From a virus: 39,024 nucleotides of DNA. The notes under the pieces were generated by a model, which worked only from the letters and a program-made list of their open reading frames with translations, made no database searches and was not told the origin of the DNA. The DNA is taken from IMG/VR virus record IMGVR_UViG_3300029858_000025; one strand, given 5' to 3'. This document shows positions 1,714-31,414 of this stretch, piece by piece. The first letter of the stretch is position 1. Each line of letters opens with the position of its first letter. Made by a program: the position numbers and the translations under genes.

Positions 1714-2343
1714 ATGCAATTAGGAGAAATGACATTCGGGGCAAACATCAAAATCCCCGAGCGCCGCGAGGATGGAACCTACGAGCTGGCTGACTACACC
1801 CTCGGTTGCCTCAATAATTTTGACGTAGGCACCGCAGGGCTTGCCCGCGAGGAGATACACAGCCGGTGCTGGTTTGGCGACAGCGCGGAGTACGCCGGAT
1901 CAGACCTGGACAAACGCATGACGGAAATATACAACAGCTACCCCAACGAGCTTAAAGAACTGATTATCCCCAGCACGATCCCGCTGTATAACGGCAGCGG
2001 CGCCAAGAATATAGCCCGAAAAGTATTTGCCCCCACGTTGACCATGGTATGCGGCGGCGACAATCACGGGATAGAAGAAGGCTTAACATGGCCTATATTC
2101 GCGGGAAGAAATAGCCGCAAAAAGACCTTTAATGGCTCGACAGCCTTCTGGTGGCTTTCCTCGCGGTACTCCTCTGACGGCGCCTGGTGCGTCTACGCGG
2201 ACGGCTCCGCCCACGACTTCGACTTGTGTTTCACGTTTGGTGTTGTCCCCGCTTTTATACTCCCTCAATCGGTGCAGATTGACGACACACCGGATAATGA
2301 CGGCAGCTACAGATTGACGGAGCTGCAAAGCTATTGCTCGTAA
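1714..2343 (+). CDS. DUF6273-like protein, paralogue A (209 aa)
   Basis: RBS AAGGAGG. Family pattern present: KVFAPTLTM ... WWLSS ... AW.V..DG ... GVVPAFILP. Paralogue of 3401-4030. Confidence 0.75.
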   Translation: MQLGEMTFGANIKIPERREDGTYELADYTLGCLNNFDVGTAGLAREEIHSRCWFGDSAEYAGSDLDKRMTEIYNSYPNELKELIIPSTIPLYNGSGAKNIARKVFAPTLTMVCGGDNHGIEEGLTWPIFAGRNSRKKTFNGSTAFWWLSSRYSSDGAWCVYADGSAHDFDLCFTFGVVPAFILPQSVQIDDTPDNDGSYRLTELQSYCS

Positions 2344-3400: not shown

Positions 3401-4030
3401 ATGAAATTAGGAGAACTACCATTCGGAAGCAACATCAAAATCCCCGAGCGCCGCGAGGATGGAACCTACGAGCTGGCTGACTACACCCTCGGTTGCCTCA
3501 ATAATTTTGACGTAGGCACCGCAGGGCTTGCCCGCGAGGAGGTACACAGCCTGTGCCGGTTCGGCGACAGCACGGAGTACGCCGGATCAGACCTGGACAA
3601 ACGCATGACGGAAATATACAACAGCTACCCCGACGAGCTTAAAGAACTGATTATCCCAAGCACGATCCCGCTGTATAACGGCAGCGGCGCTGAGGATATA
3701 ACACGGAAAGTATTTGCCCCCACGTTGACCATGGTAGGCTGCGGCGACAACCACGAAGCAGAAGAAGGCTTAACATGGCCTATATTCACGGGAAGAAATA
3801 GCCGCAAAAAGACCTTTAACGGCTCGGCAGCCAACTGGTGGCTTTCCTCGCAGAACTCCTCTGTCAGCGCGTGGTACGTCTACACGGACGGCTCCGCCTA
3901 CTACAACTTCCCGTCGCTCTCGTATGGTGTTGTCCCCGCTTTTGTAATCCCTCAATCGGTACAGATTGACGACATACCGGATAATGACGGCAGCTACAGA
4001 TTGACGGAGATGGAAAGCTATTGCTCGTAA
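3401..4030 (+). CDS. DUF6273-like protein, paralogue B (209 aa)
   Basis: Same length as 1714-2343. 111 nt are identical (3431-3541 = 1744-1854). The C-terminal WWLSS..GVVPAF segment is diverged. Confidence 0.75.
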   Translation: MKLGELPFGSNIKIPERREDGTYELADYTLGCLNNFDVGTAGLAREEVHSLCRFGDSTEYAGSDLDKRMTEIYNSYPDELKELIIPSTIPLYNGSGAEDITRKVFAPTLTMVGCGDNHEAEEGLTWPIFTGRNSRKKTFNGSAANWWLSSQNSSVSAWYVYTDGSAYYNFPSLSYGVVPAFVIPQSVQIDDIPDNDGSYRLTEMESYCS

Positions 4031-5036: not shown

Positions 5037-6360
5037 ATGCGACACCTGGGCGACATAACAAAAATCAACTGGGACGAAGTCGAGCCGGTGGATTGCGTCA
5101 CCGGCGGCAGCCCATGCCAGGATTTATCCATTGCCGGGAAGCGGGTCGGGCTTGCCGGTGAGCGGAGCGGCCTATACATGGAGCAAATACGATGCGTAAA
5201 GGAGTTGCGGAAAGCCAGTGAACGAACAGGCAAAATTCGACCTCGATATATGGTCTGGGAAAATGTGCCGGGAGCCCTTAGCAGCAACGGAGGAAAGGAC
5301 TTTGCGACAGTGCTCGAAGAAGCGGTCAAAATCGTCGAGCCGCAAGCCCCCTCTATTCCTGCGCCTGCAAAATGGCCCACAAGCGGGTGCCTCATGGGTG
5401 GAGGATGGAGCATTGCTTGGCGAGTACACGACGCGCAGTTTTGGGGAGTGCCCCAACGAAGAAAACGTATCGCGCTTGTCTGCGATTTTGGAGGACACAC
5501 CGCACCCGAAATATTATTTGAGCGCAAAGGCTTGCGCGGGGATACTGCGGAGGGCGGAACGGCACGGGAAGAAATTGCTGGAGCCGCTGAAAGCGGTTTT
5601 AATCCAGCAGTCGCAAGGAGCCTTACCGCAAGAGCGGACGGAAGCCCCTGCGCCGACAGAGGCCCCAACATCGTATGCAGCCCGCATCAGGGGGGGCGTG
5701 GCCGTCGGCATCGGCAACGGACAAGCCCATGAGGCCATGACCATGGCGCAGGAGGTTAGTCAAACGCTAAATACAATGCACGACAAACAGGCGATTTTAT
5801 ATCAGCCCAAAAGTATGATGGAAGAAAACTGGGCAGAAAGCGAAACGAAGAACGCATTACGCGCAGGAGAAAGTAAAGTGAGCCATGCGGTGTTGTGCAG
5901 CGCCGTTGATTGCCGGAATTTCACCGAGGGCGGAGAAATAAACGGAACCCTGCAAGCGAAAGAAAGCGGCGGGCAAAGCCTGAACCTGAATAATACAGTG
6001 CGGCAAAACATGATGGTGCGCCGGTTGACGCCGCTGGAGTATGAGCGATTGCAGGGTTACCCTGACGGATGGACTGACATAGGCAAGTGGAGAGACAGCA
6101 ACGGGAAAAAACATCGATCCAGCGACAGCGGCAGATATACAGCCCTGGGTAACTCAATAGCGTTACCGTTCTGGTTTTGGCTACTGCGGAGGATATCAGC
6201 GCAATATGAGCGGCCCGCCACGCTCGGCAGTCTGTTTGACGGCATCGGCGGATTCCCGCTCTGCTGGGAGCGGTGCAACGGCAAGGGGACGGCGCTGTGG
6301 GCGAGTGAAATTGAGGAGTTCCCTATGGCGGTAACAAAAAAGAGATTTGGGGAGGGATAA
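5037..6360 (+). CDS. DNA cytosine-5 methyltransferase, circularly permuted motif order, reading frame switches at a G7 run
   Basis: Frame A carries PCQ 5112-5120, ENV 5259-5267 and QRR 5454-5462, and stops at 5732. Frame B (open 5218-6360) carries RRLTPLEYERLQGYPDGW 6019-6072, GNS 6148-6156, FDGIGG 6235-6252 and SEIE 6304-6315. Confidence 0.85.
5690..5696 (+). repeat. G7 homopolymer at the frame junction of the methyltransferase
   Basis: Counted in ...cccgcatcagggggggcgtg.... Removing one G fuses ...SPHQGG to VAVGIGNGQ... Confidence 0.9.
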
Positions 6361-23435: not shown

Positions 23436-26400
23436 ATGGCAAAGACTCAAGCAGAAGTAAGGGCGGCAAAGGACGCAAAATTAGGCATAAACAGAAATAT
23501 CCAAACGACAAAAAACACAACGAAATATAACTCTGCACCGAGCAACATCAAGGAACAGCGCGACCGTAAAGACGAGGCACTTGGCATTACCCGGCGCGAG
23601 GGCAGCACCTGGAATACCGGCAAAACCTATACAAAACCTACAGCGCAGTCCCTGCTCGACCAGTATAATGCCAATGCAAAGAAGCGTATTGAAGAAGCCA
23701 ATGCGGCCACACAGAAGGCAAAAAAGGAATATGACGATTATATTGCCAAGGAAGGCCGCATATACCAGAAGAACTACGGTGCGCCATCCGACAAGGCCAA
23801 CGAGCTGCAAAACAAGCTTAATCAGGCCCGTCTCGCCCAACGGGACGCAGAGAACGAGGCGACTATAACACGCCTTGCCCAGACATCTACACTGTACAAG
23901 GACAATAAGAACAAGAAGTCTAAGGTGGATATTGGCAGAACGACGGAGCTTTCCACAGGCATAAGGGCAAAAGAAGGTAATCTCACATGGGATACTGATA
24001 CCTATAAAGCCATGACCGACGAAGAGGTATCCGTCTATAACCGCCTCGCCAAGAACGGCAAGGAAAAGGAAGCAGAAGCCTTTCTGAAAGCGATAACCCC
24101 TACTCTGAACGCAAGGGTAACGCAGAACCGCCTTGAATCGGCACAGAAAACGGCGCAGGACGGCGTAATGGGCGGTGTGGGTGCATCTATCGCATCGTCC
24201 CTGCTAAAGCCTGTCACGGCCTTACAGGGCGGGATAAAGACTGTATGGGATTTTGCCACAGGCAAACCCATAGACACCAACGCCCCCGAATATTATGCCT
24301 CCAACCTCGCCAATACCTTGCGCAGTTCCGTAGCCGAAAAGATCGAGAACGGTGTGTACGAATCCACAAAGGGCGACTACACATACGACAGAACCGGTAC
24401 CCGGCGCATGACTACCGAGGGCGAGGCAAAGAACAACGGCAAGATTGCTTCATTCCTCTATCAAACCGGCATGAGCATGGCGGATATGCTGACCATGACT
24501 CCCTTCGGGCCTGTCGGCATGCAGGTAATGATGTCCTCCAACGCCGGCGTAGACACCATGATAGACGCGAAGAACAACGGCGCGACAGATGATCAGGCCA
24601 TGGCGCTTGGCATTGTATCCGGCGCAGCGGAGGCACTCTTTGAAAAGTTCTCCATAGAAAACCTGTTTCACGGCGGCGTATCTAAAAGTACTATCCTCGC
24701 GGCTCTCAAACAGGGCGGCATAGAAGCGTCCGAGGAAATGGCTACCGAGATAACTAATATCCTTGCCAATGAGGCCGTTATGGGTAACCAGTCTGACTTC
24801 AAGAAGGCCGTGGCTGAGTATAAAGAAATGGGCCTCGACGATAAGGACGCTAAGACAAAGGCGCTTGAGGAAAAGCTGCTCCAGGTGCTTGAAGCGGGCG
24901 CAGGCGGATTCCTGAGCGGCTTTGGCATGGGCGCGGCGGCGGATGTGATGAATACACAGTCCGCAGGGGCAGCCCTCATAAACGACTATGCCAACACTAT
25001 AGCAGAGGGCATGGATATAAACACATACCTCGAACAGGGTATGAGCGAGACCGAAGCAAATAGGGCAAGGCTGGCAGACGCAAAAAAACAGGCTATTCAG
25101 GAACTGTCGGCGGAACTTCAGGCAGAAGGCGCAGAACTTGAAAAAGGGACCGTTGCAAACAGACTATCCAATAAAGCATACACGAGCGAAAGCGACATAG
25201 GCCGGCAGTTCCTTGCCAATACCGAGGGAATGAGGCTTTCCAGCGGGAAAAGGGCTGATACTGATAACGATCTTACCAATGTTACTCCGGCGACCCGCGA
25301 GACGGCCAAGAGCCTTGATATGCTCGACAAGAGCAATATTGCGCGATACATCAACGAGATAACCGCGGCTCTGGACAGAAGCGCTGCGACTGGCAAGAAG
25401 ATACTTATCGGAAAGCCGTCCGGCATTCTTGCGGAGCAGATGAATTCCGATAACGTCTTACAGATGGATCAGTCTGTTGCGAGAAAGGTCGCTTTTGCTG
25501 ACAAAAAGGACGGCGGCAAACATAACCTTGGACGCGGTGTACTGGATGAGCTTCCATATCAACTTGCCGACCCTATGATAATAACGGGCAACACCACTGA
25601 CCATATTTCTAAAGGGGATACCAACAGCGTTGTTGTGTGGACGGACTGGCAGACCGAAAACGGCGATTCCGTCATAGTCCCCATTAGGATAGACGTAGAT
25701 GGCGCTATAGAACCATACAACAGCGTAAATTCCGTGTTTGACGCTTATAATCCTGCTTACGTTGCAGACCTGTTGAGAGATGAGAACATAAGGTACACGC
25801 GAAATAATAAAAGCGTCGAAGAGCTTCTTTCCAACAGGCGACAAGTGCCTGCCGCGACTCGCTCGGTCGACGCTTCCGACACCGAGGGGCTTCTTTCCAA
25901 CGGGCGAGAAGTGCCCGCCGCGACTCGCACCTCTGATGTCAATAACACCGTATCACAGGAAAGTGTTCGCGTCAAGGAGTACCTTGCGAATTTACGCAAG
26001 CCCACCGCACAGGAAACGTTAGCAGCTATTGCAGACGACCCCACGAAGGCGGAGGAACAGCTTAGCTTATCCGAAAAGGAACAAAACTTTGCCAAAAATC
26101 TCAGCCAGGCCGCACAGAACCTCAACATGGTCAACGCCGAGACCAAGGCTTTAGGGCGCGAATACTATACGCATTCAGAGGAAATGCCCTCCTTGCAGGA
26201 CATTCAAAAGAAAAACATAGAGGACTTTACCAGTGAGGATTTCAGCGTGCTGGCAAAGAATCTGCTCGGCAGCGGCAAGCAACGCCTTTATACCAAAGAA
26301 CCTTCCCGCGTATTCGATACGGTAGCCGGCAATAATAAGGCCCTGCGCAATACGCTGTATAACCTGTTCGAAAAGCCTTTTAACGAGGCGGGCGGCAATT

Positions 26401-29400
26401 ATGGCAAATCCCTTACTTCCTCAGTAGAATCCTATAAGGAGATCATGCGGAAGTATGACATAAAGCCTAAGAGCAAAGAAGATATAGCTGCCCAGCGTTA
26501 CGGAGAAGGGCAGTATCAGGGGCCGGACGGTGAAATGATGGAATATACCCTCGCAGACCTTCAGCGGGATTGTCCTGACACATGGGAGAACGTTAAGGGC
26601 TTCGCCGAGGCCAATAGACGGGTGTACGAAGATTACCTTAACCGCATAAATTCCATGATGGAGACCATCTACCCTAACATACTTGAGAATGCCGAGGAAG
26701 AATATCAAACTGCGGTATCCCGGCGCGACGTGGCGCAATCCAAGGTTGACGCCATGACCAGAGCCATAACCGAAAAACAGAACCGCATACAGCGGCTGCA
26801 GGACACCCGCAACAATAAACAACGGACCGACACGAAGGCTTTCGCCAAGATCGAGGGCAGTATAGCAGCAGAACAGGCGAAAGTAGACAGCATGAAAACC
26901 GAGCTGGTACAGCTGGAAAAGAAACTGCGCGTAGCGGAAATGAATGCGCAGGCTCAGCGGGCAGCGATAGACAGCGGAGCCATATATGAAGGCAAAAGGA
27001 TAATCCCCCGGAAGGACTATTTCCACCACGCGCAGGAAATGCTGAGCGATTACAGCGTGCTCGACTTCCTCAGGCCCAAAAACGTGACCGAGGATGTATC
27101 CCCCGCGCTGGCTGGCGTATCCGACCAGACAAAACCCAAATCCCGCTGGTGGGGAGCAATGTTCCACCGGGGGCGGGGGGCATACTTTGAGAGCGCCTCG
27201 AACGCCATGGCGAGTTATATCGGCATGGCGGAATACAAACTCGCGTATGACCCGCTTACCAACTATTATCGCAAACTGGAAACGACGATACGCGGCAGCG
27301 CAGATACCATCAACGCAAAGAACGCCTCAGGCTTTATCGAATGGGTTAAGGACTGGACGGACGGCATGAGCGGCAAAAGCGACCACGTTATAGACCGCGG
27401 TGTACAGAAGATACTTTCCCGCCAGACCTTGAACAGCCTGAATAATCTCAACAAGCGGGTACGTGCCAATAAGGTAATGGGCAATATCCGTACCATGATT
27501 GTGCAGGCATCAAATCTGCCTAACGCAATGAGCTATGTGACCAGCCCCAAAGCGTGGGCGCAAGGCATACAGATGCTTGCGGATTATCATCACAATCCTG
27601 ATTCCGAGATAGCCAAAGCAAGAGGACAATCTCAATTTATGGCCCAGCGCTACGGCAGCAACGCAATGGAGATTCTGGAAAGCGACGGGCTGAGCGCCAA
27701 GAAGCTCGCCGGCAAGGGCATGGAACTGCTTCAACACTGGGGTGATGAGCTTACATGGTTCTCTGCTTTTGCGCAGTATAACGAGAACCCACAGGCGGCC
27801 ATGTCCGGCATGAAGCGCACCTATGACAACGCCATAGACTATGCGGACGACATAACCCGCCGAAGCGTGGCAGGCCGAGGCGTAGGCGAGGGTGCACTGG
27901 TTAATAATTCAAAGGTGGTCAATCTGATCGCCCCGTTTCAGACCGAAATACTCAACCAATGGAATACATTTTTTGAGCACGTGAAGGATCTGAAGGCGAG
28001 CCCGCAGGCGCGAGCACGTGCCGCTGCCGGTCTCGCGATGTACGAGGTTACGGCCTTTGCATTCAACACGTTAGCACAGGCAGTGCTCGGTGACAAAGTC
28101 GTGGGCTTAGATTTTATAGGCGCTCTGGTAGATACCATAACGAACGCCATAAATGACGATGACGAGGACGAAGAAAAGGACGCCCTTGATTATGCCAAGG
28201 AACTGGGGCAGGCTTCTCTCGGAACTGTAGTGGACGCTGCTCCGTTTATAAACATAATCACCAGTTTCATGGGCGACGAAACCAGTAAAAATTTATTCGG
28301 CGAACATTCGCCTACCCGTTACGGCACCGGCAACATAGGCATACGGGCTGCGGCTGATGCCATGATGTGGGGCAAGGATACCGTTGAAACTCTTATCGAC
28401 ATGGCAGGCGGTAAAGCTACGGCCAAAGACCTGGACTGGGAGGGCGGCCTTGAAACCGCCGGCAATTTCGTAACGCCGTGGGGCGGCACACAGCTCGCGA
28501 GGACTGTCAAGGGCCTTGATACCTTCTTCAGGGGCGGCAAATACGACAAGAAGGGCAATCTGCAATACGCCGTGGCGAAAACCCCGTTCAACTTCCTTCG
28601 CGCCGCTACTCTCGGCCGCAGCATGCTGCCGGAGCAACGGGAGTGGGTAGCCAAGGGATTCCCCACGCTTACCCCGGAGCAGACCAAAGCGTATGGCGAA
28701 TTTAAAAAGGCGGGCGGCAACATAACCGCGTTTACGGACTTCAAGGCCAAGTATGATGAGCTCAAAAACAGCATCGGAGCGGACAACAGAGAGATAAGCA
28801 AGCTCGCCGACGAGATAGAAGCGGCCAACCCCATGCTGTCAGAGGCTCAGGCTAAAGAGCGGGCGCAGAACCAGCTCGGCAAGAAATACCGCAACGCCGA
28901 TAACGAATACCTTACCCTTGTTGCCGACAGCGACATGACGGACGAGCAGAAGCTTGCCGCCATGATGGCAATAGGAATGTCCGATGATGACATAAACAAG
29001 GTCAAGGGGCTTGTGAAAAACGGCGTTACCGTTGGCGAATACTTGAAGTACCAGAACCTTTACAGTTCTCGCGGGTCTACAAAAACCGAGGACAAAAACG
29101 CGCTCGTATCCGCGCTCATGGCTGATAAGACGCTCTCCGAGAATGAGAAGACCATGCTTGCCAACAGGATAATTGATGGCGATTGGGTGGTGGACTTCAG
29201 CAGCCAGGCGGCAAACGACATACTTACCCAGCACGGCAAGAGCAGTTATAACAAGTATCAGAAGGCCAAGACGGAAGCCGGGATATCCGCTGAAACGTAT
29301 CTCAGCTACGCAAATAAGAGCGATAACTTCATAAGCGACTACGACCAGTACGGCACGAGCATAAGCTACAGCAAAAAGGCTAAAGTAGTCGATTACCTCG

Positions 29401-29555
29401 AAAAAATCGATGCAAGCGAGGAACAGAAAGAATATATGTTCCATGAACTGTTCGGCTATACTTCAAGCTATCAGGCCCGCTTTAAGAAGCTTAAAGAAAT
29501 CGACGGCGTCTGGTGCTACGAGCACAACGGCGAATGGATAAGACCTACTTACTAA
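23436..29555 (+). CDS. Giant (2039 aa) virion-associated polyvalent/ejection or tape-measure-like protein
   Basis: Single uninterrupted ORF with coiled-coil stretches and glycine-zipper segments. Segment ~25390-25800 resembles polyvalent-protein nuclease-like modules. Confidence 0.8.
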   Translation: MAKTQAEVRAAKDAKLGINRNIQTTKNTTKYNSAPSNIKEQRDRKDEALGITRREGSTWNTGKTYTKPTAQSLLDQYNANAKKRIEEANAATQKAKKEYDDYIAKEGRIYQKNYGAPSDKANELQNKLNQARLAQRDAENEATITRLAQTSTLYKDNKNKKSKVDIGRTTELSTGIRAKEGNLTWDTDTYKAMTDEEVSVYNRLAKNGKEKEAEAFLKAITPTLNARVTQNRLESAQKTAQDGVMGGVGASIASSLLKPVTALQGGIKTVWDFATGKPIDTNAPEYYASNLANTLRSSVAEKIENGVYESTKGDYTYDRTGTRRMTTEGEAKNNGKIASFLYQTGMSMADMLTMTPFGPVGMQVMMSSNAGVDTMIDAKNNGATDDQAMALGIVSGAAEALFEKFSIENLFHGGVSKSTILAALKQGGIEASEEMATEITNILANEAVMGNQSDFKKAVAEYKEMGLDDKDAKTKALEEKLLQVLEAGAGGFLSGFGMGAAADVMNTQSAGAALINDYANTIAEGMDINTYLEQGMSETEANRARLADAKKQAIQELSAELQAEGAELEKGTVANRLSNKAYTSESDIGRQFLANTEGMRLSSGKRADTDNDLTNVTPATRETAKSLDMLDKSNIARYINEITAALDRSAATGKKILIGKPSGILAEQMNSDNVLQMDQSVARKVAFADKKDGGKHNLGRGVLDELPYQLADPMIITGNTTDHISKGDTNSVVVWTDWQTENGDSVIVPIRIDVDGAIEPYNSVNSVFDAYNPAYVADLLRDENIRYTRNNKSVEELLSNRRQVPAATRSVDASDTEGLLSNGREVPAATRTSDVNNTVSQESVRVKEYLANLRKPTAQETLAAIADDPTKAEEQLSLSEKEQNFAKNLSQAAQNLNMVNAETKALGREYYTHSEEMPSLQDIQKKNIEDFTSEDFSVLAKNLLGSGKQRLYTKEPSRVFDTVAGNNKALRNTLYNLFEKPFNEAGGNYGKSLTSSVESYKEIMRKYDIKPKSKEDIAAQRYGEGQYQGPDGEMMEYTLADLQRDCPDTWENVKGFAEANRRVYEDYLNRINSMMETIYPNILENAEEEYQTAVSRRDVAQSKVDAMTRAITEKQNRIQRLQDTRNNKQRTDTKAFAKIEGSIAAEQAKVDSMKTELVQLEKKLRVAEMNAQAQRAAIDSGAIYEGKRIIPRKDYFHHAQEMLSDYSVLDFLRPKNVTEDVSPALAGVSDQTKPKSRWWGAMFHRGRGAYFESASNAMASYIGMAEYKLAYDPLTNYYRKLETTIRGSADTINAKNASGFIEWVKDWTDGMSGKSDHVIDRGVQKILSRQTLNSLNNLNKRVRANKVMGNIRTMIVQASNLPNAMSYVTSPKAWAQGIQMLADYHHNPDSEIAKARGQSQFMAQRYGSNAMEILESDGLSAKKLAGKGMELLQHWGDELTWFSAFAQYNENPQAAMSGMKRTYDNAIDYADDITRRSVAGRGVGEGALVNNSKVVNLIAPFQTEILNQWNTFFEHVKDLKASPQARARAAAGLAMYEVTAFAFNTLAQAVLGDKVVGLDFIGALVDTITNAINDDDEDEEKDALDYAKELGQASLGTVVDAAPFINIITSFMGDETSKNLFGEHSPTRYGTGNIGIRAAADAMMWGKDTVETLIDMAGGKATAKDLDWEGGLETAGNFVTPWGGTQLARTVKGLDTFFRGGKYDKKGNLQYAVAKTPFNFLRAATLGRSMLPEQREWVAKGFPTLTPEQTKAYGEFKKAGGNITAFTDFKAKYDELKNSIGADNREISKLADEIEAANPMLSEAQAKERAQNQLGKKYRNADNEYLTLVADSDMTDEQKLAAMMAIGMSDDDINKVKGLVKNGVTVGEYLKYQNLYSSRGSTKTEDKNALVSALMADKTLSENEKTMLANRIIDGDWVVDFSSQAANDILTQHGKSSYNKYQKAKTEAGISAETYLSYANKSDNFISDYDQYGTSISYSKKAKVVDYLEKIDASEEQKEYMFHELFGYTSSYQARFKKLKEIDGVWCYEHNGEWIRPTY
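25823..25928 (+). repeat. Two 40-nt repeat units (37/40 identical) spaced 66 nt apart inside the giant gene
   Basis: gcttctttccaac(a/g)ggcga(c/g)aagtgcc(t/c)gccgcgactcgc at 25823-25862 and 25889-25928, encoding LLSNRRQVPAATRS / LLSNGREVPAATRT. Confidence 0.9.
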
Positions 29556-29566
29556 AGGAGGGACGC

Positions 29567-30598
29567 ATGGCAATACAGGACAACAAAATAACCACCTGGA
29601 CAAACCCCATCGTCAACGAAGCGGATCGCCCCCAGCGGTCCGCTGCTGACATGAAGGCGATATTCGACAGCAACAGTAACCAGCTCAAGAAAGCACTGAA
29701 CGGCCTCATAGACGCGCTCACTCAATCCGGCGGCGGCGACATAGGGGCAAGCGTTGAGGGCATGGCCGGAAACAACGTGCAGGCCCTTATCGCGGAGCTG
29801 AAGGGCTTGATAGACGCGATAGAGGAATACACGGACAGCCTTAAAACGCCCAGCGGCGCCGCCAACGTGGGCGCAAAGGTGAGCGGCATAACCGGCAACA
29901 ACATAGCCGCCGTCCTCGCCGCGCTGAAAACCCTCTGCGACAGGGTAGATACCACCGGCGACGGAGACCTGTTTTTAAAGAACGACGGCACTTATGGCCT
30001 GCCCACCGTGGGCAGCGCCGCAAACGGCCTTCCCATAGGCGGCAAGGCGGGGCAGTTCCTGAAGAAGGCCAGCTCCGTCAATTTCGCGGGATACTGGGGC
30101 GGCATTGTAGACGAGGCCCTTTCCGGCCTGCTGAAAGCCTCCAATGGGGAGTTGGCGGCGGCAGAGGCGGGCGTTGACTACCAGACCCCCCTTGTTTCCG
30201 GGACGGACTATCAGCCCCCCATAGCTTCCGGCACTTACGCCACCCCGGACGATGTTTCCGGGGCCGTGTCGGGGCATAACAGCGCAAGCAACGCACATTC
30301 CGCGCTGTTCAACAAAAAGCAGACCGCGCCCGCCCTCGCTTCCTCCCTCCCCGCCAGCGGCGCGGCGCTGACGGCAAACACCATATATAACGTATCCTCT
30401 CCTGTGGGTACATATGTGTTTACCCCGCCCGCTTCCGGCTGGGCGCACGGCACATTTAGCACGGCGGCCTCGGTTGCGGTGTCGTTTGTGAGCGGGGCGA
30501 ACTATTTAGGCGAGGCTCCGGCAATAGAGGCAAGCAAAACCTATGAATTTGACGTATACAACGGTGTGTGGGCAGTACAGGAGGTTGTGAGTGCATGA
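29567..30598 (+). CDS. Tail fibre protein (343 aa)
   Basis: ATG 29567 follows AAGGAGGGA. Internal repeats GASVEGMAGNNVQALIAELKGLID / GAKVSGITGNNIAAVLAALKTLCD are typical of fibres. Confidence 0.7.
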   Translation: MAIQDNKITTWTNPIVNEADRPQRSAADMKAIFDSNSNQLKKALNGLIDALTQSGGGDIGASVEGMAGNNVQALIAELKGLIDAIEEYTDSLKTPSGAANVGAKVSGITGNNIAAVLAALKTLCDRVDTTGDGDLFLKNDGTYGLPTVGSAANGLPIGGKAGQFLKKASSVNFAGYWGGIVDEALSGLLKASNGELAAAEAGVDYQTPLVSGTDYQPPIASGTYATPDDVSGAVSGHNSASNAHSALFNKKQTAPALASSLPASGAALTANTIYNVSSPVGTYVFTPPASGWAHGTFSTAASVAVSFVSGANYLGEAPAIEASKTYEFDVYNGVWAVQEVVSA

Positions 30599-30957
30599 TA
30601 GCTATGCTACGAAGGAGGCTGATGGGCGAAAAAAAGCCAAAGGAATACACATTGACTGTGAAGTGGAATTCCGATCCTGTTAACTGGTTCAGAGTGATAT
30701 GCGATGGTATACAATATGGTTATAAAGACGGAAATAAAACAATCAAAATCACAGAAGGATCAACGTTAGCTATATCTGCTAATCCGGTGAGTCACATACA
30801 TTATATTTACTTTAATAATCAGCTTGTTAAGATGTATGATGCAGATGATGTCAAATCCTACACTTGGTATTTCCCTTATGCTATTACGGGAGATATTACC
30901 TTCACCTTTAGGACGGAATCCAGCACCAAGTACAGCTACATAAATTGGAAAATGTGA
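30595..30957 (+). CDS. Fibre-associated small protein A (120 aa), low-GC cassette
   Basis: RBS AGGAGG. N-terminus MIAMLRRRLMGEKKPKEYTLTV is shared with the next gene. Confidence 0.6.
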   Translation: MIAMLRRRLMGEKKPKEYTLTVKWNSDPVNWFRVICDGIQYGYKDGNKTIKITEGSTLAISANPVSHIHYIYFNNQLVKMYDADDVKSYTWYFPYAITGDITFTFRTESSTKYSYINWKM

Positions 30958-31033
30958 AAGGAATAAGTGCACTATGCGTAAAATAATTCTATCGGGGGGG
31001 CAGCCTCCGTAAAATAAAAAGCGCCTATGCGCT

Positions 31034-31414
31034 ATGATACCCTTACAGTTTGCCTTACGGCGCAGAATGATGTCAAAGAGCAAACCTAAAACATTTACAG
31101 TTACGTTGACTGGGCAACATACTACCAGTATACGCGCCAATAATGCAATAAGATATAATGGCGCAGTTTATACCGGAGGAAGTTTTATTGTAGGCGCAAA
31201 TGAGGTCATAGGTGTTGATTATAGTACCTCTGAAAGAGGTTGGCCTACTGGCGGTGGCCTCGTAACAGTAGATGGTGCTGTTAAGGTTCCTGCTGGGGGA
31301 ATAAAACACGGAACATACAATTATACTGTAACGTCAGATATTACCATTCGTGGTGAATATCATTTAAGTTATGACGATTTCGACTTTGGTGCGAACTATA
31401 TTACTACTCTATAA
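31034..31414 (+). CDS. Fibre-associated small protein B (126 aa), low-GC cassette
   Basis: N-terminus MIPLQFALRRRMMSKSKPKTFTVTL parallels 30595-30957. No clear RBS. Confidence 0.5.
   Translation: MIPLQFALRRRMMSKSKPKTFTVTLTGQHTTSIRANNAIRYNGAVYTGGSFIVGANEVIGVDYSTSERGWPTGGGLVTVDGAVKVPAGGIKHGTYNYTVTSDITIRGEYHLSYDDFDFGANYITTL

What the first reader, a model, noticed from the sequence alone, without database searches (positions are those of the whole stretch)
5218..5732. Frame switch at a G7 run plus a 157-codon open +1 frame across the methyltransferase catalytic motifs
The frame carrying PCQ/ENV/QRR ends at TGA 5730-5732. The frame carrying IX/X/I/II is offset by +1. The two meet at GGGGGGG (5690-5696). 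Deleting one G gives one continuous 440-aa product (...NIVCSPHQGG-VAVGIGNGQAHE...). With G7 as written, the enzyme is either split or needs a +1 shift. Separately, the +1 frame is already stop-free from 5218, which is 157 codons upstream of the run and directly over the most conserved part of the gene. At a rough 3-5 percent stop frequency per random codon, this is expected well under 1 percent of the time. Possible explanations: a homopolymer sequencing error; slipped-strand phase variation of a phage methylase; programmed frameshifting; a two-subunit enzyme with overlapping ORFs (as known for M.AquI); or a genuine overlapping gene.
Basis: partly seen in the sequence, partly recalled or inferred. 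Interest (0 to 1): 0.65.

Follow-up and report, generated by a model that had tools for sequence, protein, structure and literature searches.

The report
Hidden gene inside phage methylase
The long open second reading frame across this gut phage's DNA cytosine methylase is a real, widely conserved and so far unannotated overlapping gene (also present inside the dmt gene of phage P1), and the run of seven Gs is a length-variable switch that joins that hidden gene to the back half of the enzyme.

Summary
Both parts of the observation are real.

(1) G tract. The G7 tract at 5690-5696 ends the frame carrying PCQ/ENV/QRR, and removing one G gives a 440-aa product. Among about 100 related gut-phage contigs the same tract is G6, G7, G8 or G9. 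About half are in frame, about half are shifted by +1 like the window, and only two are shifted by +2. One G7 contig has flanks 100% identical to two G6 contigs. This looks like a slippage-prone switch rather than a one-off error.

(2) The +1 frame is not open by chance. It encodes "ORF-X" (about 130-165 aa), embedded in the +1 frame of phage C5-methyltransferase genes of Firmicutes, Proteobacteria (P1 dmt, Vibrio, Caulobacter) and Actinobacteria phages. Evidence:
- It stays open in every homologue examined.
- Its similarity is 4-13 SD above synonymous-codon shuffles.
- Synonymous variation in the methylase frame collapses beneath it.
- Most copies have an ATG and a Shine-Dalgarno-like sequence.

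A profile search found 4,672 clusters. There is no Pfam, NCBIfam or PADLOC match.

In the G7 state ORF-X is fused to the TRD-IX-X-I-II half, giving a two-chain enzyme. The same layout is fixed, without any G tract, in other relatives.

ORF-X function is inferred, not shown. It has a disordered N-half that often starts with a QLSLF-like (clamp-binding-like) motif, followed by a small helical module.

The parts
5037..5732 (+). ORF-A. This is the N-terminal (alpha-like) chain of a circularly permuted C5 cytosine methyltransferase. It holds motifs III/IV (PCQ), VI (ENV) and VIII (QRR), then an EILFE tail and a first TRD module, ARSLTARADGSPCADRGPNIV. In the G7 state it stops at TGA 5730-5732.
   Evidence: Pfam PF00145 scores 79.9 bits against a cutoff of 22. 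tblastn finds 1533 phage records.
5218..6360 (+). ORF-B (+1 frame, 380 aa). It consists of ORF-X fused to the remaining TRD and to motifs IX, X, I and II, forming the beta-like chain.
   Evidence: Pfam PF00145 scores 37.9 bits on residues 178-325. Twenty-four diverse 50%-cluster representatives have the same ORF-X::TRD-IX-X-I-II layout.
5218..5625 (+). ORF-X proper, the conserved overlapping gene in the +1 frame over methylase motifs VI-VIII. Its N-half is predicted disordered. Its C-terminal helical module (about 5473-5613) reads LSAILE...KYYLSAKACAGILRRAERHGKKLLEPLKAVL.
   Evidence: tblastn of the +1 translation hits 132-166 phage records, all inside methylase genes and all at offset +1. Shuffle tests are and synonymous-site suppression. 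A profile search finds 4,672 clusters. AF2 gives pLDDT 78-94 for residues about 88-132.
5198..5204 (+). Shine-Dalgarno-like AAAGGAG, 13 nt upstream of GTG 5218. It is formed by the methylase codons for K-E.
   Evidence: An SD-like sequence lies 5-16 nt upstream of the ORF-X start in 59 of 68 genome loci, and 55 of 68 starts are ATG.
5626..5689 (+). Dual-frame linker. In the +1 frame it is a P/A/T/E-rich stretch (GALPQERTEAPAPTEAPTSYAAR) that stays open up to the tract. In frame 0 it encodes most of the TRD module ARSLTARADGSPCADRGPNIV (5613-5675) and the residues that follow it.
5690..5696 (+). G7 homopolymer, the length-variable frame switch. G6 gives a single-chain enzyme plus a free ORF-X. 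G7 truncates ORF-A and fuses ORF-X to the C-terminal half. It is also the breakpoint of a TRD deletion specific to this window.

Best explanation
The region is a phage C5 cytosine methyltransferase gene with two layers of unusual coding.

Layer 1 (shown): a second protein-coding frame, ORF-X. It is overprinted in the +1 frame on the part of the methylase gene that encodes catalytic motifs VI-VIII and the linker after them. It is under its own purifying selection. In most relatives it is a separate protein of about 130-165 aa with its own start, SD-like sequence and stop.

Layer 2: a poly-G tract at the boundary of a TRD module changes length by slippage. That the tract is polymorphic across related contigs is shown. 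That it varies within a single phage population is inferred.
- With G6, the methylase is one chain and ORF-X ends 16 codons after the tract.
- With G7, as in this window, the methylase frame stops and the ORF-X frame reads on into the rest of the TRD and motifs IX, X, I and II. Two overlapping ORFs result: alpha = III-VIII, and beta = ORF-X + TRD-IX-X-I-II.

Inferred: the two chains reassemble into an active enzyme, as in M.AquI and in artificially split C5 methylases. The evidence is that the same layout is fixed in many relatives without any G tract, and that the +1 state is far commoner than the +2 state.

ORF-X function (inferred, weakest step): it acts as an accessory subunit or domain of the methylase. 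Its disordered N-terminus often carries a QL[ST][LIM]F motif resembling the bacterial sliding-clamp-binding motif, and its basic three-helix C-module is what becomes fused to the TRD half. It may tether methylation to replicating DNA.
For: Frames and tract.

ORF-X conservation in homologues:
- The +1 translation finds 132-166 phage records, E down to 1e-47.
- In Javan422, NatCom_9291, P1 dmt, Caulobacter BL94, Mycobacterium Dove and a Vibrio phage the match lies inside the annotated methylase CDS at offset +1.
- In 9 diverse genes the longest +1 open stretch (130-177 codons) always spans ENV to about 50 codons past QRR.

Shuffle tests: synonymous shuffles give 2-4.8 stops there, P(open) is 0-7% per gene, and ORF-X pairwise scores are z = 4-12.7 above the shuffles. 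For NatCom versus P1, ORF-X scores 172 against 148 for frame 0.

Synonymous-site suppression:
- The synonymous-difference fraction falls from 0.48-0.62 upstream to 0.01-0.19 under the ORF-X C-module, while frame-0 amino-acid divergence rises.
- An independent set of 43 species-level genes shows the same: 0.62-0.73 falling to 0.16-0.29, with 0.64 in the IX-X region.

Starts: ATG in 55 of 68 loci and an SD-like sequence in 59 of 68.

Spread: 4,672 50%-identity clusters and at least 519 loci in species-representative genomes.

Fusions to the beta half occur in several lineages.

G tract:
- L003 shares G7.
- IMG/VR set: 19 in frame (plus 2 more whose frame 0 then hits a TGA), 28 shifted +1 including the window, 1 shifted +2.
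- ENA set: 31 in frame, 23 shifted +1, 1 shifted +2, with tract lengths G6 to G9.
- L016 (G7) differs from L041/L045 (G6) only at the tract across 617 + 600 nt of flank.

N-terminal motif: present in 98/264, 30/120 and 23/68 homologues, against 1 background hit in about 63,600 residues. Its spacing from the downstream GK differs by clade.

Structure: the helical module has pLDDT 78-94 and the N-half is below 50.
Against: - There are no expression data (proteomics, Ribo-seq) for ORF-X in any phage.
- ORF-X matches nothing of known function.
- The clamp-motif reading rests on resemblance to a consensus recalled from the literature. The motif is present in only about 25-37% of homologues and is degenerate in this window (EQAKFDLD, GTG start).
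- No reads are available, so G7 in this particular window could still be an assembly error.
- No other contig shares the window's junction (CGTGGCC after the tract).
- The window's TRD is much shorter than in relatives (a deletion ending at the tract), so this copy could be inactive.
- G7 is short for a classical phase-variable tract.
- The IMG/VR and ENA contig sets partly overlap, so their counts are not independent.
- Activity of the two-chain form is inferred from analogy and prevalence only.
Confidence: 0.7

Rival explanations
1. The G7 is a homopolymer sequencing or assembly error. The true gene has G6 and encodes one 440-aa permuted methylase. ORF-X would still exist as an embedded gene that ends shortly after the tract.
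For: Deleting one G restores a clean 440-aa ORF. G6 alleles exist in close relatives. No second contig with the window's exact junction was found.
Against: The +1-shifted state occurs in about half of the related contigs, which come from many independent, mostly SPAdes/Illumina-style assemblies. The +2 state is almost absent and G5 was never seen, which random homopolymer error would not predict. The same two-ORF layout exists without any G tract (L063/L064).
Confidence: 0.12
2. The G7 allele is decoded as a single chain, either by programmed +1 ribosomal frameshifting or by transcriptional slippage on the G run.
For: A +1 slip on GGG GGG would give the continuous product. In L003-type alleles an in-frame UGA lies two codons after the run.
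Against: The sequence after the run differs completely between the window (CGTGGCC..., stop 12 codons later) and the L003 type (CTGTGA), so no conserved stimulator is present. G6 alleles that need no shift are equally common. The +1 frame has its own conserved start and SD-like sequence upstream, so no frameshift is needed to translate the C-terminal half.
Confidence: 0.08
3. The methylase in this window is a decaying pseudogene: a frameshift plus a TRD deletion. The ORF-B reading is an accident of the ORF-X frame happening to be open.
For: The TRD is strongly shortened relative to L003 and L008. The ORF-X N-terminus is degenerate and starts with GTG.
Against: All invariant residues of motifs IX, X, I and II are intact, and there is no stop in the 221 codons after the tract. 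The +1 state is common and the +2 state rare. ORF-X::beta fusions are evolutionarily persistent across diverged clusters.
Confidence: 0.1
4. The open +1 frame is a compositional by-product of a conserved methylase sequence, not a gene.
For: Part of the +1 sequence (GKM.(R/P)E...) is forced by the invariant W-E-N-V-P-G codons.
Against: Shuffles that keep the methylase protein and its codon usage destroy both the open frame and the +1 similarity. Synonymous sites are frozen exactly under the ORF-X C-module, while the methylase amino-acid sequence there is poorly conserved. LSQ(I/V)LE is kept between P1 and Firmicutes phages although frame 0 differs there (ASARTD versus ADFGG).
Confidence: 0.02

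Closest known systems
M.EcoHK31I (alpha/beta C5 methyltransferase; beta encoded in another reading frame inside the alpha gene; PMC2836561)
   Same: A C5 methylase gene carries a second polypeptide in an alternative frame of the same DNA, translated from internal starts. The two products work together.
   Different: EcoHK31I beta supplies motif IX. ORF-X shows no detectable similarity to the motif IX-X region (hhalign probability 0.14), and the methylase frame keeps its own motif IX. ORF-X lies over motifs VI-VIII.
M.AquI and artificially split C5 methyltransferases (PMC5944983, PMC3404938)
   Same: The enzyme is split into two chains between motif VIII and motif IX, within the variable region (here after the first TRD module rather than before the TRD). 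The two genes overlap. Such halves are known to reassemble.
   Different: Here the overlap is about 170 codons and is itself a conserved gene. The enzyme is also circularly permuted, so motifs I-II sit on the beta chain. The split is toggled by a G tract.
Phase-variable DNA methyltransferases with simple-sequence repeats (bacterial mod/R-M genes, e.g. Campylobacter and Neisseria; PMC6321876)
   Same: A homopolymeric G tract inside the coding region, with length polymorphism that changes the reading frame.
   Different: The tract is carried by a temperate phage and is short (G6/G7). The 'off' frame is not a dead end: it connects a second gene to the enzyme's C-terminal half, so the switch is between two architectures rather than simply ON/OFF.
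Natural circularly permuted C5 methyltransferases (M.BssHII, M.Alw26I, M2.Eco31I, M.Esp3I, M2.BsaI; PMC5944983)
   Same: Motif X precedes motif I in the primary sequence.
   Different: Those enzymes are all permuted in the variable region, with the new N-terminus after motif VIII. Here the new N-terminus lies between motifs II and III/IV, giving the order III/IV-VI-VIII-TRD-IX-X-I-II.
Bacterial sliding-clamp-binding proteins with a QL[SD]LF motif (own knowledge of the consensus; review PMC9690074)
   Same: A Q-[LVM]-[ST]-[LIM]-F pentapeptide at the extreme N-terminus of a disordered region.
   Different: This is motif resemblance only; binding is untested. The motif is absent or degenerate in many copies, including the window and P1.

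Membership tests
C5 cytosine DNA methyltransferase (PF00145) | Pfam score above the gathering cutoff | tested here: met
   ORF-A scores 79.9 bits and ORF-B 37.9 bits, against a cutoff of 22.
C5 cytosine DNA methyltransferase (PF00145) | Catalytic and AdoMet-binding motifs present: IV PCQ, VI ENV, VIII QxRxR, IX, X GNS, I FxGxG | tested here: met
   All are located, and they are invariant in the alignment.
C5 cytosine DNA methyltransferase (PF00145) | Canonical motif order I to X on a single polypeptide | tested here: not met
   The order is III/IV-VI-VIII-TRD-IX-X-I-II, and in this window the motifs are spread over two overlapping ORFs.
Heterodimeric (alpha/beta) C5 methyltransferases, M.AquI type | Two ORFs split between motif VIII and motif IX, with the genes overlapping | tested here: met
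   ORF-A is 5037-5732 and ORF-B is 5218-6360. L063, L064 and six genome loci have the same layout.
Heterodimeric (alpha/beta) C5 methyltransferases, M.AquI type | Both chains are required, and together sufficient, for methylation | not testable with these tools
   This needs co-expression and a methylation assay.
M.EcoHK31I-type (second chain in an alternative frame inside the methylase gene) | The second polypeptide is encoded in another frame within the methylase ORF | tested here: met
   ORF-X is fully embedded in single-chain relatives such as L001, L002, L004, L008 and 43 genome loci.
M.EcoHK31I-type (second chain in an alternative frame inside the methylase gene) | The second polypeptide carries motif IX | tested here: not met
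   hhalign of ORF-X against the motif IX-X region gives probability 0.14. Motif IX stays in the methylase frame in single-chain relatives.
Overlapping (overprinted) protein-coding gene | The alternative frame is open and conserved beyond what the primary frame imposes | tested here: met
   (z = 4-12.7; P(open) 0-7% per gene).
Overlapping (overprinted) protein-coding gene | Suppressed synonymous variation in the primary frame across the overlap | tested here: met
Overlapping (overprinted) protein-coding gene | The product is expressed | not testable with these tools
   Only indirect evidence is available: an ATG start in 55 of 68 loci and an SD-like sequence in 59 of 68.
SSR-mediated phase-variable gene | An in-ORF homopolymer whose length differs between otherwise near-identical sequences | tested here: met
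   L016 (G7) differs from L041/L045 (G6) only at the tract, with 100% identical flanks. G6 to G9 are seen overall.
SSR-mediated phase-variable gene | Length heterogeneity within one population, and reversible switching | not testable with these tools
   No reads were available.
Programmed +1 ribosomal frameshift site | A conserved slippery site with a conserved stimulator (adjacent stop or rare codon, or upstream SD) | tested here: not met
   The downstream context differs between the window and L003-type alleles.
Sliding-clamp-binding proteins | A QL[SD]LF-like motif in a disordered terminus | tested here: inconclusive
   The strict motif is present in 25-37% of ORF-X homologues and strongly enriched at the N-terminus. 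It is degenerate in the window copy, and binding is untested.

The most novel reading that the evidence does not exclude
ORF-X is a previously unrecognised accessory subunit or domain of a large family of phage, prophage and plasmid C5 methyltransferases, including P1 Dmt. It was created by overprinting on the enzyme's catalytic core. Its N-terminal QLSLF-type motif would dock it on the host beta sliding clamp, so that nascent phage DNA is methylated at the fork (a bacterial-virus analogue of DNMT1-PCNA). A slippery G tract would let the phage population alternate between a free ORF-X and an ORF-X covalently fused to the DNA-recognition half of the enzyme.
Probability: 0.3. Interest if true: 0.85.

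Novelty: new variant of a known kind. Interest (0 to 1): 0.8.

Why it matters
- Long, deeply conserved same-strand overlapping genes are rare in dsDNA phages and are usually missed by gene callers. This one sits in thousands of methylase genes, including that of the classic model phage P1, where it is easy to test genetically. It has no family assignment in Pfam, NCBIfam or PADLOC, and only weak matches to two PHROGs families labelled 'DNA methyltransferase'.
- Methylase annotations that treat these loci as frameshifted or split pseudogenes may be wrong.
- Phage orphan methylases, which matter for evasion of restriction and for epigenetic marking of gut bacteria, may have an unrecognised partner protein.
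- A simple G-tract switch can re-wire which polypeptide that partner belongs to.
- The locus also adds a natural circular-permutation topology of C5 methylases that a 2018 survey of REBASE did not find.

Tried and rejected
- **Wrong early inference about the junction.** I first inferred from L003 ('VRIRGGCDGGGKG' resembling NatCom 'LKIRSGCEGGGKG') that the frame junction lay upstream of the G run. G6 alleles then showed that the intact protein reads ...CSPHQGG|CDGGGKG... in frame 0, so the run itself is the junction.
- **Motif IX paralogue idea.** I tested whether the ORF-X C-module (KYYLS.KAC.GIL) is a paralogue of motif IX (RRLTP.EC.RLQ). hhalign gives probability 0.14, so this is not supported.
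- **Canonical post-motif-VIII segment.** The idea that the module corresponds to the canonical 'L.DIL...KY.LS' segment of classical enzymes was recalled from memory. It found no support: there were no PDB sequence hits, including against solved C5 methylases.
- **Structure searches.**
  - AF2 of ORF-X alone: mean pLDDT 61.6.
  - AF2 of ORF-B: mean pLDDT 50.8.
  - Foldseek against the PDB gave nothing below E = 5.
- **Family libraries.** Pfam, NCBIfam and PADLOC give nothing for ORF-X. PHROGs gives only weak hits to families labelled 'DNA methyltransferase'.
- **Literature.** Searches for an overlapping gene in phage cytosine methylases, and for clamp-binding methylases, found no description of ORF-X. 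They found only the EcoHK31I precedent and out-of-frame HNH insertions in actinophage methylases.
- **EcoHK31I paper.** The original 1995 paper is not held, so homology of ORF-X to EcoHK31I beta could not be tested.
- **tRNA scan.** A tRNA scan of the window found none.
Full report
**1. The observation**

The window carries two overlapping ORFs.
- ORF-A runs 5037..5732 (231 aa). It carries GGSPCQDLS (5103-5129), ENVPG (5259-5273), QRRKR (5454-5468), an EILFE tail, and a TRD-type module, ARSLTARADGSPCADRGPNIV.
- ORF-B runs 5218..6360 (380 aa, +1 frame, GTG start). It carries motif IX (6019-6072), X (6148-6171), I (6232-6255) and II (6301-6324).

Both ORFs hit PF00145 above its cutoff. The G7 tract is at 5690-5696, and removing one G gives a stop-free 440-aa product. 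The +1 frame is open from 5200. The enzyme is circularly permuted, with the order III/IV-VI-VIII-TRD-IX-X-I-II. Its start, MRHLGDITKI, corresponds to what follows motif II in canonical relatives such as Javan422 and NatCom_9291.

**2. The +1 frame is a conserved overlapping gene (ORF-X)**

*Homologues.* tblastn with the +1 translation of 5218-5697 finds 132 phage records, with E down to 4e-47. A homologous +1 ORF from NatCom_9291 finds 166 records. Every match inspected lies inside an annotated C5-methylase CDS at offset +1. These are Streptococcus phage Javan422, NatCom_9291, P1 dmt, Caulobacter BL94, Mycobacterium Dove and a Vibrio phage. In nine diverse genes the longest +1 open stretch in the whole CDS (130-177 codons) always sits at the same place, from 15-60 codons upstream of ENV to about 50 codons past QRR.

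*Shuffle test.* I permuted synonymous codons within each methylase gene, which preserves the protein and the codon usage.
- The shuffles put 2-4.8 stops into that stretch.
- The stretch stays open in 0-7% of shuffles per gene.
- Observed ORF-X pairwise scores are 4-12.7 SD above the shuffles, and none of 200 shuffles reaches the observed score.
- For NatCom versus P1, the ORF-X score (172) exceeds the methylase-frame score over the same nucleotides (148).

- Among close relatives, the fraction of identical-amino-acid codon pairs that differ synonymously is 0.48-0.62 upstream of ORF-X.
- It falls to 0.15-0.34 under the ORF-X N-half and to 0.01-0.19 under its C-terminal module.
- It is 0.42 in the non-overlapped IX-II part.
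- An independent set of 43 species-level genes, not selected by the G-tract pattern, shows 0.62-0.73 falling to 0.16-0.29, with 0.64 in the IX-X region.

Under the C-module the methylase amino-acid sequence is itself poorly conserved. So ORF-X is the constraining frame there, while the methylase constrains the part under motifs VI-VIII. That part is where ORF-X is predicted disordered.

*Translation signals.* In 68 genome loci, ORF-X has an ATG start in 55 and an SD-like sequence 5-16 nt upstream in 59. The SD-like sequence is often the AAGGAG formed by the methylase's K-E-M codons.

*Spread.* A profile search finds 4,672 50%-identity clusters, of which 3,340 have E <= 1e-10. At least 519 loci are found in species-representative bacterial genomes, and the best 80 are mostly Oscillospiraceae and other Clostridia.

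*Annotation status.* Public names are only 'uncharacterised' or 'hypothetical'. There is no Pfam, NCBIfam, PADLOC or PDB match.

**3. What ORF-X looks like**

AF2 predicts a disordered N-half and a confident small helical module.
- The disordered N-half has pLDDT below 50.
- The helical module spans residues about 88-132, with pLDDT 78-94.
- The module corresponds to S.LSQILE...P.KYYLS.KAC.GILRRA.KRGK.LP..L..AL.

Many copies begin with Q-[LVMI]-[SDGT]-[LIMF]-F, for example MQLTMFDL..., ..IQLSLFGK.., ..GQVSLFDLD.. and Dove DQLDLF.
- The strict pattern occurs in the first 40 residues of 98/264 and 30/120 database homologues, and in the first 20 residues of 23/68 genome loci.
- Background is one hit in about 63,600 residues.
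- The distance from the motif to the downstream GK differs by clade (0, 6, 9 or 12 residues). This argues that the motif itself is maintained.

The pattern resembles the bacterial sliding-clamp-binding consensus QL[SD]LF. That consensus comes from my own knowledge, so the resemblance is a lead and not a test. The window's own copy is degenerate (EQAKFDLD).

**4. The G tract**

The closest phage record (L003) has G7 at the same site. A 22-nt pattern next to the tract retrieves 48 IMG/VR contigs and 58 ENA gut-metagenome contigs. The two sets partly overlap.

Tract states and their consequences:

| Tract and following sequence | Downstream frame | Result |
|---|---|---|
| G6+CTGTGAC, G7+TGTGAC, or one G9+CTGTGAC | frame 0 continues | one long methylase ORF, with ORF-X stopping 16 codons after the tract |
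| G7+CTGTGAC, G8+TGTGAC | +1 (ORF-X frame) continues | frame 0 stops within 9 codons, and the ORF-X frame runs on for 150-440 codons through IX-X-I-II |
| G8+CTGTGAC (2 contigs) | third frame continues | |

Counts by set:

| Set | In frame | +1 | +2 | Source |
|---|---|---|---|---|
| IMG/VR (including L003 and the window) | 19 | 28 | 1 | |
| ENA | 31 | 23 | 1 | |

Two further IMG/VR contigs (L029, L051) have an in-frame tract, but frame 0 then hits a TGA four codons later. G5 was never seen.

L016 (G7) and L041/L045 (G6) are 100% identical over 617 + 600 nt of flank.

So the tract length changes on short evolutionary timescales. The +1 state, which is the only shifted state that connects ORF-X to the C-terminal half, is tolerated about as often as the in-frame state.

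The window is the only contig in which the tract is followed by CGTGGCC... Compared with L003 it has lost about 650 nt of TRD modules, with the breakpoint at the tract.

**5. The two-chain layout is not peculiar to the G tract**

- L063 and L064 have ORF-A (195 aa, stops) and ORF-B (404 aa, ORF-X+TRD+IX+X+I+II) overlapping by 136 codons, with no G run.
- Twenty-four diverged cluster representatives share the ORF-X::TRD-IX-X-I-II layout, with unrelated TRDs and junctions.
- Proteobacterial and non-permuted examples also exist (P0307, P0227).
- In 80 species-level genome loci, 43 are single-chain with an embedded ORF-X and 6 are split with ORF-X reaching motif IX.
- Dove has the methylase split into two adjacent genes, plus ORF-X.

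Repeated, persistent fusion of ORF-X to the TRD/IX/X half is Rosetta-stone-type evidence that ORF-X works with the methylase.

**6. Mechanism proposed**

Shown:
- dual coding;
- the length-variable tract;
- the two alternative architectures.

Inferred:
- The G7 state yields an active alpha/beta enzyme. [quoted passage not shown]
- ORF-X is an accessory subunit or domain, possibly one that tethers the enzyme to the sliding clamp.

Programmed frameshifting is unlikely because nothing downstream of the tract is conserved between the window and L003-type alleles.

**7. Comparison with known systems and novelty**

- The locus is a member of PF00145, but with a non-canonical order. A 2018 REBASE survey found natural permutations only in the variable region (PMC5944983).
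- It works like M.AquI and M.EcoHK31I but differs from both. ORF-X carries no motif IX, it lies over motifs VI-VIII, and it exists alongside complete single-chain enzymes.
- It resembles SSR phase variation, but the switch is between two architectures.
- I found no description of ORF-X in the searchable literature.
- I rate it a new variant of known kinds (overlapping gene, split methylase, phase-variable tract) with high interest. The main reasons are its breadth and its presence in P1.

**8. Context**

The window looks like a complete temperate siphovirus-type gut phage of about 39 kb. It has an integrase, a large terminase, a portal and a 2039-aa ORF (23436-29555) that is probably a tape-measure protein, judged from size and position only. 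The methylase sits in the replication module, between two proteins that match replication-initiator families.

Noticed in passing
window 5037-6360: The methylase is circularly permuted with its new N-terminus between motifs II and III/IV, giving the order III/IV-VI-VIII-TRD-IX-X-I-II. Its C-terminal ...VTKKRFGEG would join onto its N-terminal MRHLGDITKI in canonical relatives. A 2018 REBASE survey reported natural permutations only in the variable region (PMC5944983). This topology is common in the gut-phage clade (L003, L008, L013, L063 and many P-hits).
   Followed up: partly
window 30994-31000: This is the only other G/C run of 7 or more in the window. The G7 tract lies in the 76-nt gap between two small, apparently paralogous genes (30568-30957 and 31034-31414) downstream of a tail-fibre-like gene. 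It may be a second variable tract, in a promoter or RBS region.
   Followed up: no
window 5690-5760 compared with L003 2970-3640: Relative to its closest relatives, the window has lost about 650 nt of TRD modules (CDGGGKGALVQ... up to ...GGNQVPLTY). The breakpoint is exactly at the G tract, which suggests that G-rich module boundaries are recombination or deletion hot spots for TRD shuffling.
   Followed up: partly
L004 (P1, AF234172.1 66728..67201, inside dmt 66412..68676): Phage P1 carries ORF-X with ATG and GGAG 7 nt upstream. It is unannotated in the P1 record, and near-identical E. coli entries are called 'Uncharacterised protein' (P0265, 46 member sequences).
   Followed up: partly
L006 (Mycobacterium phage Dove, CDS 107/108): The Dove methylase is split into two adjacent, non-overlapping genes (248 aa carrying I-VIII; 116 aa). 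It also carries a 159-codon ORF-X starting MTSDQLDLF.. inside the first gene.
   Followed up: no
P0238 (605 aa relative of ORF-B): A relative has an insertion of about 230 aa inside motif IX (after RLQGFP) that looks like a homing-endonuclease insertion (my reading of the sequence; not scanned against any family library). This recalls the out-of-frame or in-frame HNH insertions described in actinophage methylases (PMC11855218).
   Followed up: no
L029, L051, L065: Three contigs with an in-frame G6 tract carry a TGA four codons after it (CTGTGACGGATGAGG), so both frames end there. This is a different, nonsense-type truncation of the same gene.
   Followed up: no
window 1714-2343 and 3401-4030: Two paralogous 209-aa genes match a PHROG annotated as Hoc-like head decoration. 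They are located in the early/replication region rather than in the structural module.
   Followed up: no
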